Notes under the pieces: generated by a model
What the model saw: only the letters and a program-made list of their open reading frames with translations
Database searches by the model: none
Told to the model about the DNA's origin: nothing
DNA from: a virus
Reading direction: 5' to 3' (one strand)
DNA length: 64,000 nucleotides
Virus record (IMG/VR): IMGVR_UViG_3300023176_006361
Coordinates: 12,812-76,811 of that record
Shown here: positions 1,674-22,494 of the stretch, piece after piece
Layout of the letters: each line of letters begins with the position of its first letter
Numbering within the stretch: the stretch's first letter is position 1
Position numbers and translations under genes: made by a program

Positions 1674-2567
1674 TTAGATACCAAAGGTAATTGCATATCC
1701 AAGTGCTTTGACTGAAAGTGCTTGGAGTTGATCTTGAGTAACCAATGATGCTGAATTAGTACCTTCAGTGAAAAGTTCCCAATTAGACGAAGAAGTCAAG
1801 GGATCATTGTTGGTTGATTCTAAGATATTTATATAAGTACTAGGTGCGCGGAAAGCAACATCACCTGGATAATAGGTGGTTCCCGCACTCCAAACACCTT
1901 TCCAAGAGAATCCTTCAAGTACCAGATCCCAGGAAGTTTGACCTGGCTGGTTTGGTGCTACGCCAACAGTCGTTGTTTTTGCAGTGTATGCATATCCACC
2001 AAACTGGACTACGTTACCAGGAGCGTATGTAACCAATGGATCATACGTTCCAATAACAGAGAAACCAGTTGTCAAAATGTCCCAAAAATCATTGGGGGCA
2101 TTCAAATACTGGTTTGGTTGTCTATTGTTATTTGCCTGCTTTGCAATGTAAGTATATCCACCAAAAGAAACAATGTCTCCTGGTTGATATGCTGATAAGT
2201 TATTCCAACTATCTTCAAATTGGAAACCACCAACATACTCTGAGAAGTTTGCCGCAGCAAATGCGGAAGTAGAAGAGTGTGCAGTAGTTACTAAGTAAAG
2301 AGTGTTTCCAAATTTTACTACGTCATTGAGACGATAGAAAGTATTCTGTGCCCATTCACCAACGTTGCGTACACCCTCAAGATGAAGCGCCCAATTAGAT
2401 AAATCGTTGGAATACCAATCAGTAGCTGCTGCAGTTGACGTATGGTTTGTAGTACAAACGTAACTGTTTGCACCAAACTTGACGATATCGTCGATGACAT
2501 ATGCAGTGCCACCAACCCAATCACCTTTCCACTTGAATTTTAATCTGCCAAGTCTAAAATCTGCCAT
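1674..2567 (-). CDS. Virion structural protein with about five W-x-Y-x-GDVV-FGG-Y (CBM5/12-like) repeats and a C-terminal YAITFG motif
   Basis: 297 aa; N-terminus MADFRLGRLKFKWKGDW; repeats YVIDDIVKFG, YRLNDVVKFG, YQPGDIVSFGG, YAPGNVVQFGG, YYPGDVAF. Confidence 0.75.
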   Translation of the reverse strand: MADFRLGRLKFKWKGDWVGGTAYVIDDIVKFGANSYVCTTNHTSTAAATDWYSNDLSNWALHLEGVRNVGEWAQNTFYRLNDVVKFGNTLYLVTTAHSSTSAFAAANFSEYVGGFQFEDSWNNLSAYQPGDIVSFGGYTYIAKQANNNRQPNQYLNAPNDFWDILTTGFSVIGTYDPLVTYAPGNVVQFGGYAYTAKTTTVGVAPNQPGQTSWDLVLEGFSWKGVWSAGTTYYPGDVAFRAPSTYINILESTNNDPLTSSSNWELFTEGTNSASLVTQDQLQALSVKALGYAITFGI

Positions 2568-14339: not shown

Positions 14340-14588
14340 TTATCCTAATGCAATTGTGAGTGCGATTACTTCGTCTTCTGAAACACCAGCAGTAAAGGAA
14401 TTCACAGCGTCGGTCAAATTAGTGAAGTTGCCTTGAAGTTGACCAATGTCGCCAACGTTCTCAGAGATCTGGTTGATCTTTCTTCTTTGACCTTCAAAAG
14501 TATCAGTAGTAAGAACTACTGGTTTTGTAGAAGTATGTGGTGAAGTGGGAGTAGAAAATATTGCTACTCCCCAAGATGATTGTGCCAT
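14340..14588 (-). CDS. Short fibre-anchor/coiled-coil protein ending IALTIALG
   Basis: 82 aa; TDTFEGQRRKINQI motif typical of cyanophage fibre N-termini; its N-terminus resembles the missing last strand of the upstream FN3-like module. Confidence 0.7.
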   Translation of the reverse strand: MAQSSWGVAIFSTPTSPHTSTKPVVLTTDTFEGQRRKINQISENVGDIGQLQGNFTNLTDAVNSFTAGVSEDEVIALTIALG

Positions 14589-14589
14589 T

Positions 14590-17500
14590 TTAGGTTACGT
14601 TGATTCTTGCCCTTACATAATAATTGGTTGACGATTCCAGGACGACATTAGAAGGTACTTCCAGTTCCAATAAATTCTCGGTATCTGTAAGTGACTCATA
14701 AATGACATTGCTAAATGAAGCATCGTCAGCAATCTGCCAATCAGTTGAAGTATGTGAATAGTTAGCAGTGTCATAGCTAACATTATTTAGGTTGATGGTT
14801 GGTCTCAGACTTGTTTCAATTGGTAGATTGAATACTGGTTGATCAACAACGTTTGTTGTAAATGCTACTGGAGAACTCCATGCACTATCAAAACCAGCAC
14901 TATCTCTATATCTAACTTCTACTGTATAAGTAGTGTTCCAATCAAGAACAGGAGCCAAGAATTCAATTTTTTGTCCACTATCTCCAGCAGGATCAAAGTC
15001 TACAGCAGTTGTATAAACAATCTGTCCATCACTCACTCTAGTAATTCTCCAGAATGAATATTCGTGACCATTACCAAGATAACTGATGAAGAGGCTAGAT
15101 TGAATTCTAGGTTGTCTTACAAAAGTTTTGGTGGTTATGGCATCTACAAATCCTGCAGGGTTGATAGTAGGATTTGCAATAAACTGAAGTGTCAGGATTG
15201 CTGCGTTTGAATATGCAACTGCAGCACCTTCAGACTGAGCACTTAGACGATAATAATAACCATTGTTTGTAGAGTCTCCAGTAACTGATAAATTATTTGA
15301 AATTGATGAAGGAATATCTGTCCAAGTAGCACCTTGATTAGAACTTACCTGCCAAAGATAGTTGATCGTTCTGTTGCTGGTAACAGATGCATTTGCAGTA
15401 AACGTAACTGGAACACCAGCAGTAGTAGAAACACTCTGGGGTTGTTGTGTAAAAGTAATGACTGGAGTCAATACTGTCAGAGTCGCAACATCAGATGTTA
15501 TTGGTGAATTAGTTGCAGCAGGGTGACTAATGATGACTCTATATTGATCACCATTGTCATTCGCAGTTACTGTTGCTGGAGTTGTGTATGAATTAGTTGT
15601 TTCTCCAACAAGTGGCGTCCATGTATTGCCATTATCATCTGACTTCTCCCACTGATATGTAACTACTGATGCATCAGATGCATTAGCAGTTACCGTGAAA
15701 TTGGCCGCATCAGGTTGATATCTTGTTTGATCTTGTGGTTGAGAAACAATTGCAATGGTAGGTCTGACATTGACAGTCAGAGATGCTGCGTTAGATGTAA
15801 TATCTCCTGCAGAACCTACAAGACTTACGACAACTCTATATTGATTTCCACTTGCTGAAGTAGCTACATTAGAAATAGTATACGAGTTATTGACAGCACC
15901 AGTAATAGGTGTCCAAGTAGAACCAGAATCTGTAGATTCCTGCCATTGATAAGTTGCAGTTCCGCTTGATACTGTAGTCGCTACACTGAATGTAACATTC
16001 TGAGTATCATAAACTGTTTGATCAGTTGGTTGAGTATCGATCGCAAGAGTTCTTTGAACAGTCAGAATAACTGCATTAGCAACAACTGATCCAAGACCAG
16101 GAATGGATCCAGTTACGCGATAATAATCATCATTATCATCTGCGTATGTTGTACCTGAAACCGTCAGAGAGCTTGAAGTTTCCCCTGCAACTGCCGTCCA
16201 AGTAGATCCTTGATCATCAGATCTTTCCCATAGATATGTGATTGATAGACCACTATTTGTGGACATGGCAACAGTAAATGTTGCATCTGTACCTTCGTTT
16301 ACAGTCTGATTTGTGAGTTGAGTATCAACTGTAATCGAACCCTGAGTTACAGTCAGAATTGCAACATCAGATGTCAAAGGAGTATTGACTGCTGAAGTCG
16401 ATGAAACCTGTACTCTGTATTGATATCCAGTGTTTCCTGCTGGAGTTTGAATGCCACTCAATGAGAGAGTTGCATTTGTTTCTCCAATCATTGTGGTCCA
16501 TGTAGAACCATTGTCAGATGACTCTTCCCACTGATATTCCAGAGGAACATCATCAGTGCTTGCTGCCGTTACTGAGAATGTTGCAGTCTGACCTGAGATG
16601 ATTGAAACATCTGCTGGTTGTGATGAAATAGTCAGGAAAGATCCAACATACTGCAAAGGCATTGCGTTGGAATATGTGGTTGCTGATCCAGAATCAGTAA
16701 TCTCTAATCTAATCAGAAGATTATTAATTGCAGAAGTATCGTCTTTGATCGTCAAAGTTGTGTTGGTTTCACCAGAGAATCCAATTTCAGATGCAGCAAT
16801 ATTTGTCCAAGTTGCTCCATTATCAGAACTCTTCTGCCACTGGTATGTGTGTGGTGCAGTTCCTGGTGCTATATCATCAACAGTAATTTCTCTTGGGTTA
16901 CTTCCACCACCTTTTGCAAGGACGGTCATACCATCTACCCAAATGTCATTTACATCAAAACCACCATTTGCTGGACCATTAGGGTTATTTCCACCTGGAT
17001 CAGATGGTACAAATGCAGATCCTGGTTGATAATATGCTTGTCTCAGTGATGTACCAAAGATGTATGGATATACAGGAACATTACTTGAGTCAACAGTAAT
17101 AAAGTATGCATATGTTCCATTTGGATAATCTGGGGTTACACCATAACGTCCGTTTGAACTATCAAGTGTTCCAGATCCTGGAGAATAAGTATAGTCTTGT
17201 AGGAATGAACCTGCACTCAAAGTTACTGACTGACCACTAACAGTAATAGTATCAGTATATTTGAAACCTACAGGTCTATGGGTATCAGTATTGAGTTGAC
17301 TAAATGATGAAGTCATTCTCGTAGGAGATGACGTATTATCATTGGCGTTTGTATAACCCCATGGACCATAAATTGGGTGACCATCAAATGCCCAACCAAT
17401 GATCTTAGAGTGACCATCAGGATGACGGAAATTATCTCCATTATAATTTGTTGTTTTATAATATGAATTTCCTTGTGCTACTGCACTCCAGTCGCCACTG

Positions 17501-20500
17501 AATAAGAATGTACCGCTGTGATAATGATATTCACCATTTTGTTCTGGATGTCCACCAGCACTGTCTACACCATAATACAATTCATTGTGAACAGCATTAT
17601 ACTCAAATCCTGGTGGTGGATTGTCTTGACTTCCTGGGAGAGCACCAGGACCAGCAGATGGGTTGAATAAAACAACACCATTAGATGCGATACCAAGAGC
17701 ACCAAGAGTCCATGGTGTCAATGATGGTGAATTTGTACCACCTCTATAAACAATTGTATGATTTAGAGTTTGTGCTGAAGTAGTATTTGGATTAGCGCCG
17801 TTTGGATGTGGACCATGAGTTGCTGGATCTGGAAGTTGATCAGAAACAATCGTCATCAAATACTCTGAAGCAGAGAAGTTGCTGCTTGTCAATGACAAAC
17901 TATCATCAGCACTTACTCCATTTGGTCTAATGATATTGATTGCCGATCCAACCTGAGTTTGAAGTACCGTTAGAACTTGTGCAGTGGATGTAACTGAACT
18001 GTAGAAAGAAGTTGAGTCAGCATCAGAAGTCCCTCCAGTTGTGGTAAAGTCGTAATAGATACGTGATCTAAATGAATAACCATTCAAAGATAATGGTGGT
18101 AAAATTTCAAGTGTTCCTGTTCCAAGTCCAGATGTATACCAGGACTCAGTTCCATCAATATACGTATAACCATTTCCATCATCATATTCCCAGAGAATTA
18201 CTCCATTTGGAACTGCGGGTGTTGAAAGATTTGTATAAGTTACTGTAAAAGTATATGGCGTGCTTTGATTGACACTACCTGTAGCAGGAATATCTGTGCC
18301 GACACTATAGACTGGATCAACACTAACTACTCCACTTGTTCCTCCTTGAGTTTGTGAAACAAGCAGTTGTGGATGATCAATAAGAACAACTAATTGAGCA
18401 CCATCATCACTAGGATTGAATCCATCAATTGATGCTTCACCAACTCTTACACTGTAGAGTTGATGTCCATTAGATCCAGTTTGTCCTTGAAGTGCTTCGA
18501 TTCCATATGGACTACCAGGAAGATACGAAGGATTTGCTGGCGTTGCCCCAGGATCATAACCAAGAGAAATTATTGGGGTAGATCCATCACTGAAAGTCGC
18601 TTCAATTTCTACTCTACCTGTATTTGCTCCAGCAAAAATATTTGTCAGAGAAGCATTATCCCAATAAGTATTATGAGTAAGTGTTACTGTAGCAGTGAAG
18701 GTTCTTGCTAGAGTTCTAACATCCGCAGCATTTCCCGAATCTGCAGATACTACGCATGAGAAGAAGTAACCACTTATGTCAGTACTATCAGGAACAGTCA
18801 AAGTTGCTGTATTGACACCACTGACATTAGCAAGAACTGCTGCATCATTCCACTGTCCATTATTGACTGCTGCTTGAGTTGTAGCATACTGCCAACCATA
18901 ACTCAAAGATCCTGCATCAGAAGCAGATGCTGTAACAGCAAAAGTAGCAGTTCCACCATCTACTGGATATGATCCATCTCCAGTTGCATTAGATGGTTGA
19001 ACATCGATTGTAATTACTGCGTTATTAGTGCCTGAGAGTGTAAATGAACGATCAAGTACATTTCCAGAAACTTTTTCTCTAATACGGAATGTGTAAGTTT
19101 CATCTGATGGACCTGAAGTTGCAGTTCCTGAAAATACACCAGTTGCAGAATTAAAGGTAAATCCAGAACCAGTAATTGTATAAACACCATTACTCTCTGT
19201 AAATGCTGAGGTTGACCCAGTATCTACTAATTCAAATTCTGGTGTGATGTATTGGGAACTTACAGTTTCTCCAGCAAAAGTAGTGGTTGTTACTGATACT
19301 GTAGTTGTAAATGTAGATCCATCATTGAGAGTTATACCATCAATGTTATTTGGAGTTTCGCTCCAAGTAGTTGTCAGATCAACAAATGGGAAGAAGATGC
19401 CTTGACCGCCGTCATATGTAACTGACTGAGTTCCTGAAGAAACTGGATTATATCTTCTTTCTTCTTCTGGGTTTGCATTGAGATAAGCTGCTCCCCAACG
19501 ACGACCAGCAAGACCGAGTTCAGAGAATCCACTACCAGTTGATTGTATAACTCTTGATTTTGGAACAGGGAATTGCTTTACAGCAATACCACCACCATAT
19601 TCCTCAGTTTCTAACTGAGCCCAAATATCACCAGCGACGAATGGATTACCGTCAGGTGCATTTCCAGACCTTACAACGCTTGAGTAATTAGTAATCCAAT
19701 TATAAATTGCATCATTTGCAAAGAAAGTCCCTTCAATTTTGGTGAATCTCATTGGCCATCTTGGACGACCACCAATAATCGAGTCATCATCTGCTTTATT
19801 GAACATGCTGCCGCCACCTTGTTCGGTGCCAGTTGCAGTTGTATCAGCAGTGAATGTAATAGTTTTATTTGTAGAGTCAATTGCCGTGACTGTTCTCCAC
19901 TTAGAGCAAAAATCTGGGAGAGAAATACCACCAATTGTTGCTTCAGTAACATTTGTTGCAGAAATAAGCTCTGCTCCCATTCCTGGATGATTTTGGCAAT
20001 AGTAGTAATAACTTGCTGATGTAGCAACAGTACTAGGAACGTCTGGGTGAGTATCTCCTCTTGGATCAATAAATTCAATATAACACTCTACTCCGCCACC
20101 AACAGCAGCACTATAAGTTGCTTTATCTACTTCTCCTTGCCCAGCAACAAAATAACGAATACAATTGTTGGTGTTCAAGCTCAAACTAGTAAAATATGCA
20201 TCAAAGGAATCTCCACCAGAATGAGTTCCATCTGATGTTGGAGAAATATCTAATGGATGAGTTGCATTAGATGCATCAGTTTGAAGGAATCTATAAACTA
20301 CACCTTGTTCAATGGAAAGATTTGGTTGAGATGCAGGAGATCCAGCAGCAACACCATTTTGAATTCTATCAAATGCAAATACTCCACCAGAAACAGTTAC
20401 TTCATATTTTATGATTTCGCCAAGGTTGAAAGTATCTTTCTTTCTCTCATCGTGAAGTAGAGTTGTTGGATTTTGTGTTCCAGGATCAGTAACTCTGGGA

Positions 20501-22494
20501 AATTCAAATTCAAAAATATCACCTTGCTGAGGATTCAGTGCAGTATATACTGCATCATGAAGACTCAATGTAACATCAGTAGAACCGCTTGTAGTGCTAA
20601 GAGGATATCTCTTTGCTGTATCATTAGCAGCAGTTGTCATAAAATACGTTGTTGCTGCACCCTGACTGACATTGGTGAAATTTTGAAAACCAACTGCAGA
20701 TGGATCCTGGACTGTATGGTCAGTAAAACTTACAGGAGACTCTGCCGCCAGCGCAGCATTTGGTTGACCAAATTGTGCCTGTGCATCATAAATGTCTCTC
20801 CAAACTGCAACCATGCCTGCAACAAGTGGAGATGAGAATGAAGTTCCACTGATTGTTACATGATTTGCTCCTGTATAATCAGATCCAGTAGTAGTGCTTG
20901 ATGTCCAATCATAACTTGGGCAATAAATTCCTTGACCAGGAGCATAGCAAGTAACAGCTTCACCATAGTTGGTAAAAGTTGCGAATGTCTGACGATTACT
21001 TACAAGTCTCGTAGCACCAACAGTAAGTTTATCAAAACCACCACCTGACATTCCATAAGTATTTGATGAATAATTTGTCAGACTGATTTCTGGATCAAGT
21101 TCAGATTGTATACCAGAATCTCTTACACCATATCCAATTCTTGTATTTTTTGGACCATAATTTTGAGGATTGCTATCTGCGTCCGTCCAAGTCATGCCGT
21201 TACCAGCAGATCTAACGAGAGTAACTCTTGGTAATGAAGCAATTCTTGCCTCAGCATCTTCATATGCCTCATCAAAATTTGTTGTTGGTAAATTAGCTTC
21301 TCGAACAACAATTGTGCCAGTCATCGCTGAGTGAAACTGGCAAACATAAGTCAGAGTACCAGAATTATCTAAGAGCTGAGAAGTATCAATCGTGACCTCA
21401 CCAGTTTGATTATCTCCAGATGTTGTTGTAGCACCAGAAAATGCACCAAAATCATCATTGACCAAGAATGGGTGTCCAGATGCATTCATGTTCATAACAA
21501 GAATGTCACCTTTGGTAACAGTCAGAGTCGGATCATTTGCATTAGTGTGTGTCGTAGTTCCATCAGTTCCAGAAAAAACATAATCACTAGAACCATTGTT
21601 ACCTACATTGAAATTATATGTTTGTGGAGCATAGTTTTCATTTCTCCCCATGAAAGGAAATTCGGGAGTAGGAGAACTCAGACCAATACTTACATTGACA
21701 ACAGAAGATCTTGGTCTTGTATTTCCGTCAAGAGTATTTCCTTTGAATTCTGCATCGTCAGGATCATTGTGTCTATAAACAGCATCCCATGCTTCCAGCA
21801 TCTTAGTAGTAAAGATGTCACCATTATCATCAGATACTCTCAAAGCATAAATTTTTGCCTTATTTGCAACGCCAGCAAATCTACCTGCTGCCATGATTGC
21901 ACAATAAGTTCCATGTCCATCTGAAACGTTGCTGCCAGTTGACTGAGGTTCATTTCCATCTGTAGTCCCTGGATCATATAGAGATGTTGGAAGTTCGTAT
22001 ACTCTGTAGTTACTTTGCTCAGTAGATCCATTCAGATTCGTAACATAATCTGGATGAAAAAATTCTGGGTGAAGTCCTGCACCAGATCCTGTTGGTCTGC
22101 TAGCACCTCGAATGCCTGAGTCAATAACATAGATATCTACATTTTCGCCATCATTTTTTGTGGAAAACGATCCAACGTTTGGATTTGAATCATCATAATC
22201 CAACCTTGAAATCGCATCCAAATGCCAATACCTATTGCCAGAAGTTGCTCCTGGAACATAGGTACTTCTTGTTGCGTGAAGCTCAAAATTACAATGATCT
22301 TTAGAAACCTTGCCCAACTCTAAGGCAGAAATTTCATTATAAAGTCTTTCTTGATCATCGCCGTCAAAGATGATTATGTCTAGACTTTTTAGAATCTTAT
22401 ATGAATCAATAGTTACGGAGGAAGAAACATCAGTCGCGATCTGCTCTAGAGATGCAGAAGGGGATGTTCTTTTGAGCAGGACTTTATTAGACAT
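14590..22494 (-). CDS. Giant virion protein: S8 subtilisin-like protease, two cupredoxin-like domains, YHYH domain, multiple Ig-like repeats, two FN3-like modules
   Basis: 2634 aa; triad motifs IYVIDSG, DGHGTYCA, SGTSFSSP and oxyanion SAGN; HPF...YVCQFHSAM and HPL...YYCQNHPGMG; GEYHYHSG...IIGWAFDGHPIYGPWG; repeated YQWxxSxDxGxTW..YRV Ig units. Confidence 0.85.
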   Translation of the reverse strand: MSNKVLLKRTSPSASLEQIATDVSSSVTIDSYKILKSLDIIIFDGDDQERLYNEISALELGKVSKDHCNFELHATRSTYVPGATSGNRYWHLDAISRLDYDDSNPNVGSFSTKNDGENVDIYVIDSGIRGASRPTGSGAGLHPEFFHPDYVTNLNGSTEQSNYRVYELPTSLYDPGTTDGNEPQSTGSNVSDGHGTYCAIMAAGRFAGVANKAKIYALRVSDDNGDIFTTKMLEAWDAVYRHNDPDDAEFKGNTLDGNTRPRSSVVNVSIGLSSPTPEFPFMGRNENYAPQTYNFNVGNNGSSDYVFSGTDGTTTHTNANDPTLTVTKGDILVMNMNASGHPFLVNDDFGAFSGATTTSGDNQTGEVTIDTSQLLDNSGTLTYVCQFHSAMTGTIVVREANLPTTNFDEAYEDAEARIASLPRVTLVRSAGNGMTWTDADSNPQNYGPKNTRIGYGVRDSGIQSELDPEISLTNYSSNTYGMSGGGFDKLTVGATRLVSNRQTFATFTNYGEAVTCYAPGQGIYCPSYDWTSSTTTGSDYTGANHVTISGTSFSSPLVAGMVAVWRDIYDAQAQFGQPNAALAAESPVSFTDHTVQDPSAVGFQNFTNVSQGAATTYFMTTAANDTAKRYPLSTTSGSTDVTLSLHDAVYTALNPQQGDIFEFEFPRVTDPGTQNPTTLLHDERKKDTFNLGEIIKYEVTVSGGVFAFDRIQNGVAAGSPASQPNLSIEQGVVYRFLQTDASNATHPLDISPTSDGTHSGGDSFDAYFTSLSLNTNNCIRYFVAGQGEVDKATYSAAVGGGVECYIEFIDPRGDTHPDVPSTVATSASYYYYCQNHPGMGAELISATNVTEATIGGISLPDFCSKWRTVTAIDSTNKTITFTADTTATGTEQGGGSMFNKADDDSIIGGRPRWPMRFTKIEGTFFANDAIYNWITNYSSVVRSGNAPDGNPFVAGDIWAQLETEEYGGGIAVKQFPVPKSRVIQSTGSGFSELGLAGRRWGAAYLNANPEEERRYNPVSSGTQSVTYDGGQGIFFPFVDLTTTWSETPNNIDGITLNDGSTFTTTVSVTTTTFAGETVSSQYITPEFELVDTGSTSAFTESNGVYTITGSGFTFNSATGVFSGTATSGPSDETYTFRIREKVSGNVLDRSFTLSGTNNAVITIDVQPSNATGDGSYPVDGGTATFAVTASASDAGSLSYGWQYATTQAAVNNGQWNDAAVLANVSGVNTATLTVPDSTDISGYFFSCVVSADSGNAADVRTLARTFTATVTLTHNTYWDNASLTNIFAGANTGRVEIEATFSDGSTPIISLGYDPGATPANPSYLPGSPYGIEALQGQTGSNGHQLYSVRVGEASIDGFNPSDDGAQLVVLIDHPQLLVSQTQGGTSGVVSVDPVYSVGTDIPATGSVNQSTPYTFTVTYTNLSTPAVPNGVILWEYDDGNGYTYIDGTESWYTSGLGTGTLEILPPLSLNGYSFRSRIYYDFTTTGGTSDADSTSFYSSVTSTAQVLTVLQTQVGSAINIIRPNGVSADDSLSLTSSNFSASEYLMTIVSDQLPDPATHGPHPNGANPNTTSAQTLNHTIVYRGGTNSPSLTPWTLGALGIASNGVVLFNPSAGPGALPGSQDNPPPGFEYNAVHNELYYGVDSAGGHPEQNGEYHYHSGTFLFSGDWSAVAQGNSYYKTTNYNGDNFRHPDGHSKIIGWAFDGHPIYGPWGYTNANDNTSSPTRMTSSFSQLNTDTHRPVGFKYTDTITVSGQSVTLSAGSFLQDYTYSPGSGTLDSSNGRYGVTPDYPNGTYAYFITVDSSNVPVYPYIFGTSLRQAYYQPGSAFVPSDPGGNNPNGPANGGFDVNDIWVDGMTVLAKGGGSNPREITVDDIAPGTAPHTYQWQKSSDNGATWTNIAASEIGFSGETNTTLTIKDDTSAINNLLIRLEITDSGSATTYSNAMPLQYVGSFLTISSQPADVSIISGQTATFSVTAASTDDVPLEYQWEESSDNGSTWTTMIGETNATLSLSGIQTPAGNTGYQYRVQVSSTSAVNTPLTSDVAILTVTQGSITVDTQLTNQTVNEGTDATFTVAMSTNSGLSITYLWERSDDQGSTWTAVAGETSSSLTVSGTTYADDNDDYYRVTGSIPGLGSVVANAVILTVQRTLAIDTQPTDQTVYDTQNVTFSVATTVSSGTATYQWQESTDSGSTWTPITGAVNNSYTISNVATSASGNQYRVVVSLVGSAGDITSNAASLTVNVRPTIAIVSQPQDQTRYQPDAANFTVTANASDASVVTYQWEKSDDNGNTWTPLVGETTNSYTTPATVTANDNGDQYRVIISHPAATNSPITSDVATLTVLTPVITFTQQPQSVSTTAGVPVTFTANASVTSNRTINYLWQVSSNQGATWTDIPSSISNNLSVTGDSTNNGYYYRLSAQSEGAAVAYSNAAILTLQFIANPTINPAGFVDAITTKTFVRQPRIQSSLFISYLGNGHEYSFWRITRVSDGQIVYTTAVDFDPAGDSGQKIEFLAPVLDWNTTYTVEVRYRDSAGFDSAWSSPVAFTTNVVDQPVFNLPIETSLRPTINLNNVSYDTANYSHTSTDWQIADDASFSNVIYESLTDTENLLELEVPSNVVLESSTNYYVRARINVT

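What the first reader, a model, noticed from the sequence alone, without database searches (positions are those of the whole stretch)
14540..14900. FN3-like domain split across a gene boundary: possible donor-strand assembly of virion proteins
Seen: the penultimate module of the 2634-aa protein ends LDWNTTYTVEVR-YRDSAGFD-SAWSSPVAFTT. The last module stops at LESSTNYYVRAR-INVT*, and the next ORF begins MAQ-SSWGVAIFST, which looks like the missing terminal S-x-W...F-x-T strand. Skipping one base (ACC T AAA ATG) would restore the same 8-residue spacing. The TAAAATG junction recurs at 2948, 11622 and 13936, so an assembly error is less likely. Inference: the 82-aa protein completes the fold in trans (pilus-like strand donation), or a +1 frameshift makes a fusion, linking the protease to the fibre chain.
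Basis: partly seen in the sequence, partly recalled or inferred. Interest (0 to 1): 0.75.

Follow-up and report, generated by a model that had tools for sequence, protein, structure and literature searches.

The report
Virion domain split across two genes
In a group of marine cyanobacterial viruses, the last fold of a giant protease-bearing particle protein stops one strand short, and the next small gene begins with a strand-like piece; the split is real and old, but nothing here shows that the small protein supplies the missing strand.

Summary
The 2634-aa protein (T4-GC_519, 'peptidase S8') ends YYVRARINVT, then TAA, one base, and the ATG of an 82-aa ORF that starts MAQSSWGVAIFSTP.

A profile built from 23 complete modules of unrelated proteins covers the last module only to position 88 of 106. 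Reading on into the 82-aa ORF extends the match to 102 (+7 bits; about 3 in 10,000 random peptides do as well).

It is not an assembly error. Three assemblies from different studies are identical here. S-BM3 and 19 viral or metagenomic loci, down to about 52% identity, all show TAA + 1 nt + ATG, and none is fused.

A programmed +1 frameshift is unlikely (about 7%). The last sense codon varies (ACC/ACT/ACA/ATC), the stop is always UAA, the ATG is invariant, and the same TAANATG coupling joins other genes of the operon.

Best reading (about 45%): an old gene fission inside an FN3-like domain. The small protein is a strand, a Pro/Ser/Thr linker and a helical body like the N-terminal motif of fibre proteins, and it would complete the fold in trans.

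Main doubt: P-HM1 and P-HM2 keep the same truncated module with gp13 downstream and no donor found.

The parts
14590..22494 (-). 2634-aa virion-type protein (P0001). It has an N-terminal S8 subtilase region, a YHYH domain, Ig-like repeats and two C-terminal FN3-like modules. It is an ortholog of S-BM3 'peptidase S8' (T4-GC_519) and matches phrog_27200.
   Evidence: The phrog_27200 profile (1832 positions) is matched up to position 1829 at residue 2633, so family members end at the same place.
14854..15177 (-). Penultimate, complete FN3-like module. It ends with the F-G hairpin YTVEVRYRDSAGFDSAWSSPVAFTT.
   Evidence: AlphaFold2 gives pLDDT 60-84 with strands through to VAFT. VIA-align matches many FN3 domains at Z 6.2-7.2, rmsd about 2.5 A over about 77 residues. 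Pfam Ig_Rha78A_N E = 2e-4 and fn3 E = 0.11, both below their cut-offs.
14593..14853 (-). Last FN3-like module, truncated after the F strand (ends YYVRARINVT). It lacks the F-G loop and the G strand.
   Evidence: The module HMM covers positions 8-88 of 106. The same end is seen in all orthologs from 100% to 41% identity. In the same AlphaFold2 job this module gets only pLDDT 31-49.
14586..14592 (-). Junction TAA-A-ATG: stop of the large gene, one spacer base, start of the small gene. This is a translational-coupling arrangement.
   Evidence: It is conserved as TAA + a/t/c + ATG in 19 loci and in S-BM3. The same motif sits at three other junctions of the operon.
14340..14588 (-). 82-aa ORF (P0002), always 82 aa in its relatives.
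14550..14579 (-). G-strand-like segment SSWGVAIFST (residues 4-13 of P0002).
   Evidence: It extends the module HMM match to position 102 (+7.2 bits). S4, S5, W6, G7, A9, F11, T13 and P14 are invariant across the five loci aligned despite many synonymous codon changes; the protein cluster P0036 has S at position 9. The segment is coil when the protein is folded alone.
14520..14549 (-). Pro/Ser/Thr-rich linker PTSPHTSTKP (residues 14-23).
   Evidence: Together with the strand it forms a 19-20 residue N-terminal extension that is absent from the stand-alone homologs P0029-P0031 and from fibre N-termini.
14343..14519 (-). Helical body of P0002 (VVLTTDTFEGQRRKINQISENVGD ... IALTIALG). It resembles the N-terminal motif of fibre-like virion proteins.
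   Evidence: phrog_6005 'virion structural protein', profile positions 6-31 of 1512. BLASTP to residues 6-33 of the 394-aa and 625-aa proteins that follow VrlC-like and GC112-like genes gives E = 5e-5 and 1e-4. Three helices are predicted at low confidence.
14547..14571 (-). RNA hairpin within codons 6-14 of P0002, starting 17 nt after the stop. It is probably incidental.
   Evidence: z = -3.0 in the window, -2.2 in L007 and -3.4 in L011 (a different stem), but absent in L008 and L010 (z = -0.6 and +0.2).

Best explanation
An old gene fission cut an FN3-like domain between its F and G strands. The large protein is released with an incomplete last sandwich. The small gene starts one base after the stop, so it is probably translated by coupling (inferred).

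The small protein has three parts: the missing strand (SSWGxAxFxTP), a flexible Pro/Ser/Thr linker, and a short helical body homologous to the N-terminal motif of fibre-like virion proteins.

The proposed mechanism is that the strand inserts next to the A and F strands of the last module, as a donor strand does in pilus subunits. This would join the protease-bearing protein non-covalently to an adaptor whose helical body plugs in where fibre N-termini normally attach.

Shown: the truncation, the strand likeness, conservation of the split and of the strand, and homology of the body to fibre N-termini. Inferred: docking, translational coupling, and the attachment role.
For: - The truncated module covers HMM positions 8-88 of 106. 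Reading on into P0002 extends the match to 102 and adds 7.2 bits. Null tests: 0 of 55 ORF N-termini, and about 4-5 unrelated peptides out of 20,000 random ones, do as well. The strand motif alone has p about 1.5e-4 per position.
- The split is conserved in S-BM3 and in 19 viral or metagenome loci down to about 52% identity, always as TAA + 1 nt + ATG and never fused.
- Strand residues are invariant across the five aligned loci despite synonymous drift, and more conserved than the G strand of the neighbouring complete module, where the W is lost in three clades.
- The strand plus linker is an N-terminal add-on. Homologs P0029-P0031 and the fibre proteins start about 19 residues later.
- In one AlphaFold2 job with one alignment, the complete module folds as FN3 (pLDDT 60-84, Z about 7), while the truncated one does not (pLDDT 31-49). 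The N-terminal 30 residues of P0002 are coil when it is folded alone.
- Three assemblies from different studies are identical here, at 15-53x word depth, with no indels.
Against: - P-HM1, P-HM2 and MED4-213 orthologs (41% identity) have the same truncated end. In P-HM1 and P-HM2 the next gene is gp13.
- No ORF N-terminus or other segment in P-HM2 looks like a donor. The truncated module is still well conserved there, so it can be kept without this partner.
- The W-to-F spacing is one residue shorter than in canonical strands.
- Docking was never tested.
- The AlphaFold2 contrast rests on an alignment of only 5 sequences.
- One database variant (P0038, a single contig) has the strand scrambled by a local double frameshift. 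Whether that is real or a long-read error could not be checked.
Confidence: 0.45

Rival explanations
1. Relic without docking. The fission, or a chance likeness, left a strand-like N-terminus on the small protein, but the truncated module is self-sufficient or binds something else. The N-terminal peptide of the 82-aa protein then serves another contact or is only a spacer.
For: - P-HM1 and P-HM2 keep a conserved truncated module with gp13 downstream and no detectable donor.
- The strand likeness is moderate: 7 bits, with one residue missing between W and F.
- No docking evidence was obtained.
Against: - The strand residues are invariant across the five aligned lineages despite synonymous change, which is unlike a spacer.
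- The extension occurs only where a truncated module lies directly upstream: 6 of 6 loci found through the upstream module alone.
- Its position and spacing are what a G strand needs.
Confidence: 0.35
2. Programmed +1 ribosomal frameshift (or stop-hopping) at ACC_UAA_A. This would make a fused protein of about 2717 aa with a complete last domain and a C-terminal anchor, in addition to, or instead of, the two separate products.
For: - The downstream frame is always +1, with exactly one spacer base.
- The read-through restores the loop length.
- A stable hairpin lies 17-22 nt after the stop in three of five lineages.
- Phages are known to add Ig-like extensions by frameshifting, including +1 at a stop in Listeria phages (PMC5009743).
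Against: - Known +1 sites need a slippery P-site codon, such as CCC_UGA in the Listeria phages PSA, A118 and A500 (PMC5009743). Here the codon is ACC, ACT, ACA or ATC, and none can re-pair in the +1 frame.
- The stop is always UAA, followed by A, U or C.
- No Shine-Dalgarno-like stimulator is conserved upstream, and synonymous sites around the junction vary freely.
- The hairpin is missing in two lineages and lies too far downstream. There is no Rfam match.
- The ATG is invariant in 19 of 19 loci, and the ORF is called as 82 aa everywhere.
- TAANATG is the ordinary coupling junction of this operon.
Confidence: 0.07
3. Sequencing or assembly error that splits a continuous ORF.
For: A single-base offset next to a short A run is the sort of place where such errors occur.
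Against: The junction is identical in three assemblies from different studies. Fourteen runs hold half or more of the stretch's sampled words. The split is present in the isolate genome S-BM3, with a different spacer base, and in 19 loci with spacer a, t or c. No fused form matched the pattern, which allowed for one.
Confidence: 0.01

Closest known systems
Donor-strand complementation in chaperone-usher pili (and related strand-donation fibres such as TasA and type V pili)
   Same: An Ig-like sandwich lacks its C-terminal G strand. A short N-terminal extension of another polypeptide has the sequence pattern of that strand.
   Different: There is no chaperone, usher or polymerisation. It would be a one-to-one join of two different proteins made in the cytoplasm, encoded by adjacent coupled genes. 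The fold is FN3-like rather than pilin-like. Docking is not demonstrated.
Programmed frameshift extensions that add Ig-like domains to phage structural proteins (T3 and Lactobacillus phage A2 by -1; Listeria phages PSA, A118 and A500 by +1 at CCC_UGA; PMC5009743)
   Same: A phage structural gene, an Ig/FN3-like module at its 3' end, and a downstream frame offset by one base at the stop codon.
   Different: In the known cases a whole domain lies in the new frame and a slippery codon is present. Here the domain itself is cut. No slippery codon or stimulator is conserved, and the downstream ORF has its own invariant ATG.
Engineered split Ig-like domains (SpyTag/SpyCatcher from CnaB2; split FN3) (from general knowledge, not tested here)
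   Same: A terminal beta strand removed from a sandwich domain can rebind as a separate peptide and rebuild the fold.
   Different: Those are laboratory constructs, and SpyTag also forms a covalent isopeptide bond. This would be a natural, conserved, non-covalent case.
T4-GC_519 / phrog_27200 proteins of T4-like cyanophages (S-BM3 'peptidase S8', P-HM2 PHM2_106)
   Same: Orthologous large protein with the same truncated C-terminal module.
   Different: In P-HM1 and P-HM2 the next gene is the neck protein gp13 and no strand-bearing small protein was found. The strand-bearing 82-aa partner is seen only in the S-BM3-like clade.

Membership tests
Donor-strand complementation system (pilus type) | Acceptor: an Ig-like fold that lacks its C-terminal G strand | tested here: met
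   The module HMM covers positions 8-88 of 106 and the protein then ends. The homologous complete neighbour folds as FN3 with a G strand.
Donor-strand complementation system (pilus type) | Donor: an N-terminal extension on another polypeptide that matches the missing strand | tested here: met
   SSWGxAxFxTP at residues 4-14 adds 7.2 bits to the module match. The likeness is rare in null sets, though one residue shorter than the canonical strand.
Donor-strand complementation system (pilus type) | Physical insertion of the donor strand into the acceptor groove | not testable with these tools
Donor-strand complementation system (pilus type) | Periplasmic chaperone and usher genes | not tested
   These are not expected for a cytoplasmically assembled phage. 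The neighbours scanned against PHROGs are fibre or virion structural proteins. No chaperone or usher search was run.
Programmed +1 frameshift at a stop codon (prfB or Listeria phage tsh type) | Slippery P-site codon that can re-pair in the +1 frame (CUU_U, CCC_U) | tested here: not met
   The last sense codon is ACC, ACT, ACA or ATC across 19 loci. The known sites are described in PMC5009743.
Programmed +1 frameshift at a stop codon (prfB or Listeria phage tsh type) | Conserved stimulator (upstream Shine-Dalgarno-like sequence or downstream structure at the right distance) | tested here: not met
   No purine-rich element is conserved upstream. A hairpin occurs in only 3 of 5 lineages, 17-22 nt downstream. 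No Rfam family matches.
Programmed +1 frameshift at a stop codon (prfB or Listeria phage tsh type) | A fused product exists | not testable with these tools
   This needs proteomics or ribosome profiling.
Fibronectin type III / Ig-like fold | Seven-strand sandwich recognised by profile or by structure | tested here: inconclusive
   Pfam fn3 E = 0.11 and Ig_Rha78A_N at 21.9-25.3 bits against a cut-off of 27.4. The model of the complete module aligns to many FN3 domains at Z 6.2-7.2, a range in which chance matches also occur.
T4-GC_519 / phrog_27200 | Full-length profile match and synteny in the fibre region of T4-like cyanophages | tested here: met
   phrog_27200 E = 2.5e-210. The S-BM3 ortholog is annotated T4-GC_519 in the same gene order.

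The most novel reading that the evidence does not exclude
A natural, conserved case of one protein domain divided between two adjacent phage genes and rebuilt in trans. The N-terminal strand of an 82-aa adaptor would complete the last FN3-like module of a 2634-aa protease-bearing virion protein and tether it to the fibre attachment site. That would make donor-strand assembly part of phage particle construction.
Probability: 0.4. Interest if true: 0.75.

Novelty: new variant of a known kind. Interest (0 to 1): 0.55.

Why it matters
How the very large, variable accessory proteins of marine T4-like cyanophages are attached to the particle is largely unknown.

A strand donated across a gene boundary would be a simple, modular way to hang new proteins on an existing anchor. 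Here the cargo is a subtilase with copper-type (cupredoxin-like) and Ig-like domains. It could explain how the hypervariable fibre region swaps cargo. It would also be a natural counterpart of the split-domain tags used in protein engineering.

If instead the strand does not dock, the case still shows that a truncated sandwich module can be kept for a long time at a protein's end.

S-BM3 has an isolate genome with Synechococcus WH 7803 recorded as host, so the question can be tested directly.

Tried and rejected
I did not resend it in any form, so docking remains untested.
The contexts of P0015, P0020, P0024 and P0038 could not be fetched that way.
- A search for fused forms of P0002 among 145-2000 aa proteins found none. 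A full fusion of about 2717 aa lies outside that range, so this is weak evidence.
- The exhaustive representative search with P0002 gave only 7 hits, none a module-plus-anchor fusion.
- Pfam on P0002 and its homologs gave nothing.
- The Atlas lead to T4_gp9_10_N (score 0.87, on 54% of members) was not confirmed by Pfam. It stays a lead only.
- A PDB sequence search with the module-rich protein P0023 gave no hit.
- The ungapped strand matrix scored the P0002 N-terminus at only 0.9 bits. This exposed the one-residue shorter spacing.
- The RNA consensus fold around the junction showed little covariation, and the Rfam scan gave one chance-level hit.
- The metatranscriptome contigs (X15) do not bridge the junction by enough bases to say anything about the RNA.
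- The proteomics paper on T4-like cyanophages (PMC3037559) gave no data on this gene pair in the text read.
- A literature search for donor-strand mechanisms in phages returned only pilus papers.

Full report
**What the window is.** The window lies on a 76.8-kb IMG/VR viral contig. It is about 85% identical at the DNA level, over the junction region tested, to Synechococcus phage S-BM3, a T4-like cyanomyovirus (Kyanoviridae).

The finding sits in a long minus-strand operon of tightly coupled structural genes. The order is: a VrlC-like 2878-aa protein, a 71-aa GC112 virion protein, the 2634-aa protein, an 82-aa ORF, a 131-aa ORF, and then a series of fibre-like proteins.

**Observation.** The 2634-aa protein (P0001, 14590..22494) ends ...NYYVRARINVT. 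It is followed by TAA, one A, and the ATG of the 82-aa ORF (P0002, 14340..14588), which starts MAQSSWGVAIFSTP. The module before it ends with a full F-G hairpin, YTVEVRYRDSAGFDSAWSSPVAFTT. TAAAATG also joins three other gene pairs of the operon.

**Is the last module really incomplete?**
- I built a 106-position HMM from 23 complete modules of two unrelated proteins, P0013 and P0023.
- The last module matches positions 8-88 at 47.1 bits, and the protein then stops. That is a better match than the penultimate module gives (27.8 bits).
- The missing part is the F-G loop and the G strand.
- An AlphaFold2 run on the last 195 residues with four orthologs modelled the complete module at pLDDT 60-84, with a terminal strand at VAFT. 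The truncated module reached only pLDDT 31-49 and had almost no strands.
- The modelled complete module aligns with many fibronectin type III domains at Z 6.2-7.2, rmsd about 2.5 A over about 77 residues. Pfam hits (Ig_Rha78A_N, fn3) are below their cut-offs.
- The alignment was shallow, so the contrast is suggestive only.

**Does the small protein start with the missing strand?**
- Reading the stop plus one base as a single step extends the HMM match to position 102 and raises the score by 7.2 bits.
- None of 55 other ORF N-termini from the window does as well when placed in the same position. Of 20,000 random 25-mers from the window's ORFs, only four or five unrelated ones do.
- A strand-only matrix shows that W-to-F is one residue shorter than in canonical strands. 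With one deletion allowed the score is 7.5 bits, p about 1.5e-4 per position.
- The likeness is real but moderate.

**Is the split real?**
- S-BM3 has the same two genes, with TAATATG at the junction.
- Proteins homologous to the C-terminal 205 residues, down to 52% identity, all end at the same point: INVT or INLTAI.
- Loci found through the upstream module alone all carry the small ORF one base after the stop, 6 of 6.
- A degenerate DNA pattern that would also have matched an in-frame fusion found 6 viral and 13 metagenome loci. Some of these are the same contigs in both collections. Every one has TAA + one base (a, t or c) + ATG.
- Fourteen public runs hold half or more of the stretch's sampled words, and three assemblies from different studies are identical here with no indels.
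- An assembly error is excluded.

**Frameshift or two proteins?**
- The last sense codon is ACC, ACT, ACA or ATC. None can re-pair in the +1 frame, and the Thr codon drifts synonymously.
- The stop is always UAA, and the ATG is invariant.
- Synonymous sites on both sides of the junction vary freely.
- A hairpin in codons 6-14 of the small gene is strong in three lineages, using different stems. It is absent in two others and lies 17-22 nt after the stop. No Rfam family matches.
- Known phage +1 sites at stops use CCC_UGA (PMC5009743).
- TAANATG is simply the way many genes of this operon are joined.
- I put the frameshift at about 7%. It is not excluded, and it is not exclusive of trans complementation.

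**What is the small protein?**
- Its relatives are all 82 aa.
- Folded alone, residues 1-30 are coil and the rest forms three helices at low confidence.
- Homologs found by exhaustive search (P0029-P0031, 62-90 aa) start about 19 residues later and lack the strand and the PTSPHTSTKP linker.
- In other phages the same motif (xLTSNTFEQQRQTIN, SDTFDEWRQKTN) is the N-terminus of 394-aa and 625-aa fibre-like proteins. Those proteins directly follow the VrlC-like and GC112-like genes. phrog_6005 'virion structural protein' matches at profile positions 6-31.
- The body of P0002 therefore looks like a free-standing copy of a fibre N-terminal motif, with the strand and linker added in front.
- Across the five aligned lineages the strand residues S4, S5, W6, G7, A9, F11, T13 and P14 are invariant despite many synonymous changes. 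The protein cluster P0036 has S at position 9. The equivalent W in the neighbouring complete module is lost in three clades.

**The main counter-evidence.**
- P-HM1, P-HM2 and MED4-213 have a GC_519 ortholog at 41% identity. In P-HM1 and P-HM2 it has the same truncated end (YYVRIRFNINPT in P-HM2), and the next gene, again one base after the stop, is the neck protein gp13. Its N-terminus has no such motif.
- Scanning every ATG-started ORF of P-HM2, and every position with the strand matrix, found no convincing donor.
- The truncated module there still keeps its key residues.
- So the module can be maintained without this partner. It may have another partner there, or it may be stable as it is.
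- A single database variant, P0038, has the strand scrambled by a local double frameshift. I could not check its contig.

**Verdict.** The error and frameshift readings are unlikely. The most economical account is an old fission of an FN3-like domain whose pieces still belong together: the small protein supplies the strand in trans and carries a fibre-type anchor. I give this about 45%. A relic without docking gets about 35%.

Noticed in passing
window 14547-14571 (minus strand): A stable RNA hairpin (GGGAGUAG...CUACUCCC) lies inside codons 6-14 of the 82-aa gene. A different stem of equal strength sits in the same place in the most distant clade (L011). Two intermediate clades lack it.
   Followed up: partly
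L031:2501-4378, L032:2489-3673, L033:2501-2905: In other viral contigs the motif of the 82-aa protein's body is the N-terminus of 394-625-aa fibre-like proteins. Those proteins directly follow a VrlC-like gene and a GC112-like small gene. In the window the 2634-aa gene sits between GC112 and this motif.
   Followed up: partly
protein P0038 (ENA, single contig of 160,935 bases): A variant of the 82-aa protein reads MAQSSWGV, then nine residues of another frame, then HTSTKP. This is a compensated local frameshift that destroys the strand. It may be a long-read homopolymer error or a real variant.
   Followed up: no
window 14340-14366 and 1674-1700 (C-termini on the minus strand): The 82-aa protein and the homolog P0029 end in a hydrophobic IALG tail. 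The 297-aa fibre-like protein (1674..2567) ends similarly (ALGYAITFGI). The role of this tail is unknown.
   Followed up: no
window 14590-22494 (minus strand): The large protein combines a subtilase region (PF00082 in the precomputed annotations), a weak plastocyanin/azurin-type hit at residues 322-397, a strong YHYH domain (1596-1804) and several Ig_3-like repeats.
   Followed up: partly
L004:4090-4110 (P-HM2) and L005 (P-HM1): In P-HM1 and P-HM2 the truncated GC_519 module is coupled by the same TAAAATG junction to the neck protein gene gp13.
   Followed up: partly
protein P0028 (880 aa): This protein has eight tandem copies of a unit of about 55 aa (…TKTKDVVLETDDVAEGQTNLYYTDERAR…) that weakly resemble residues 11-68 of the 82-aa protein.
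   Followed up: no
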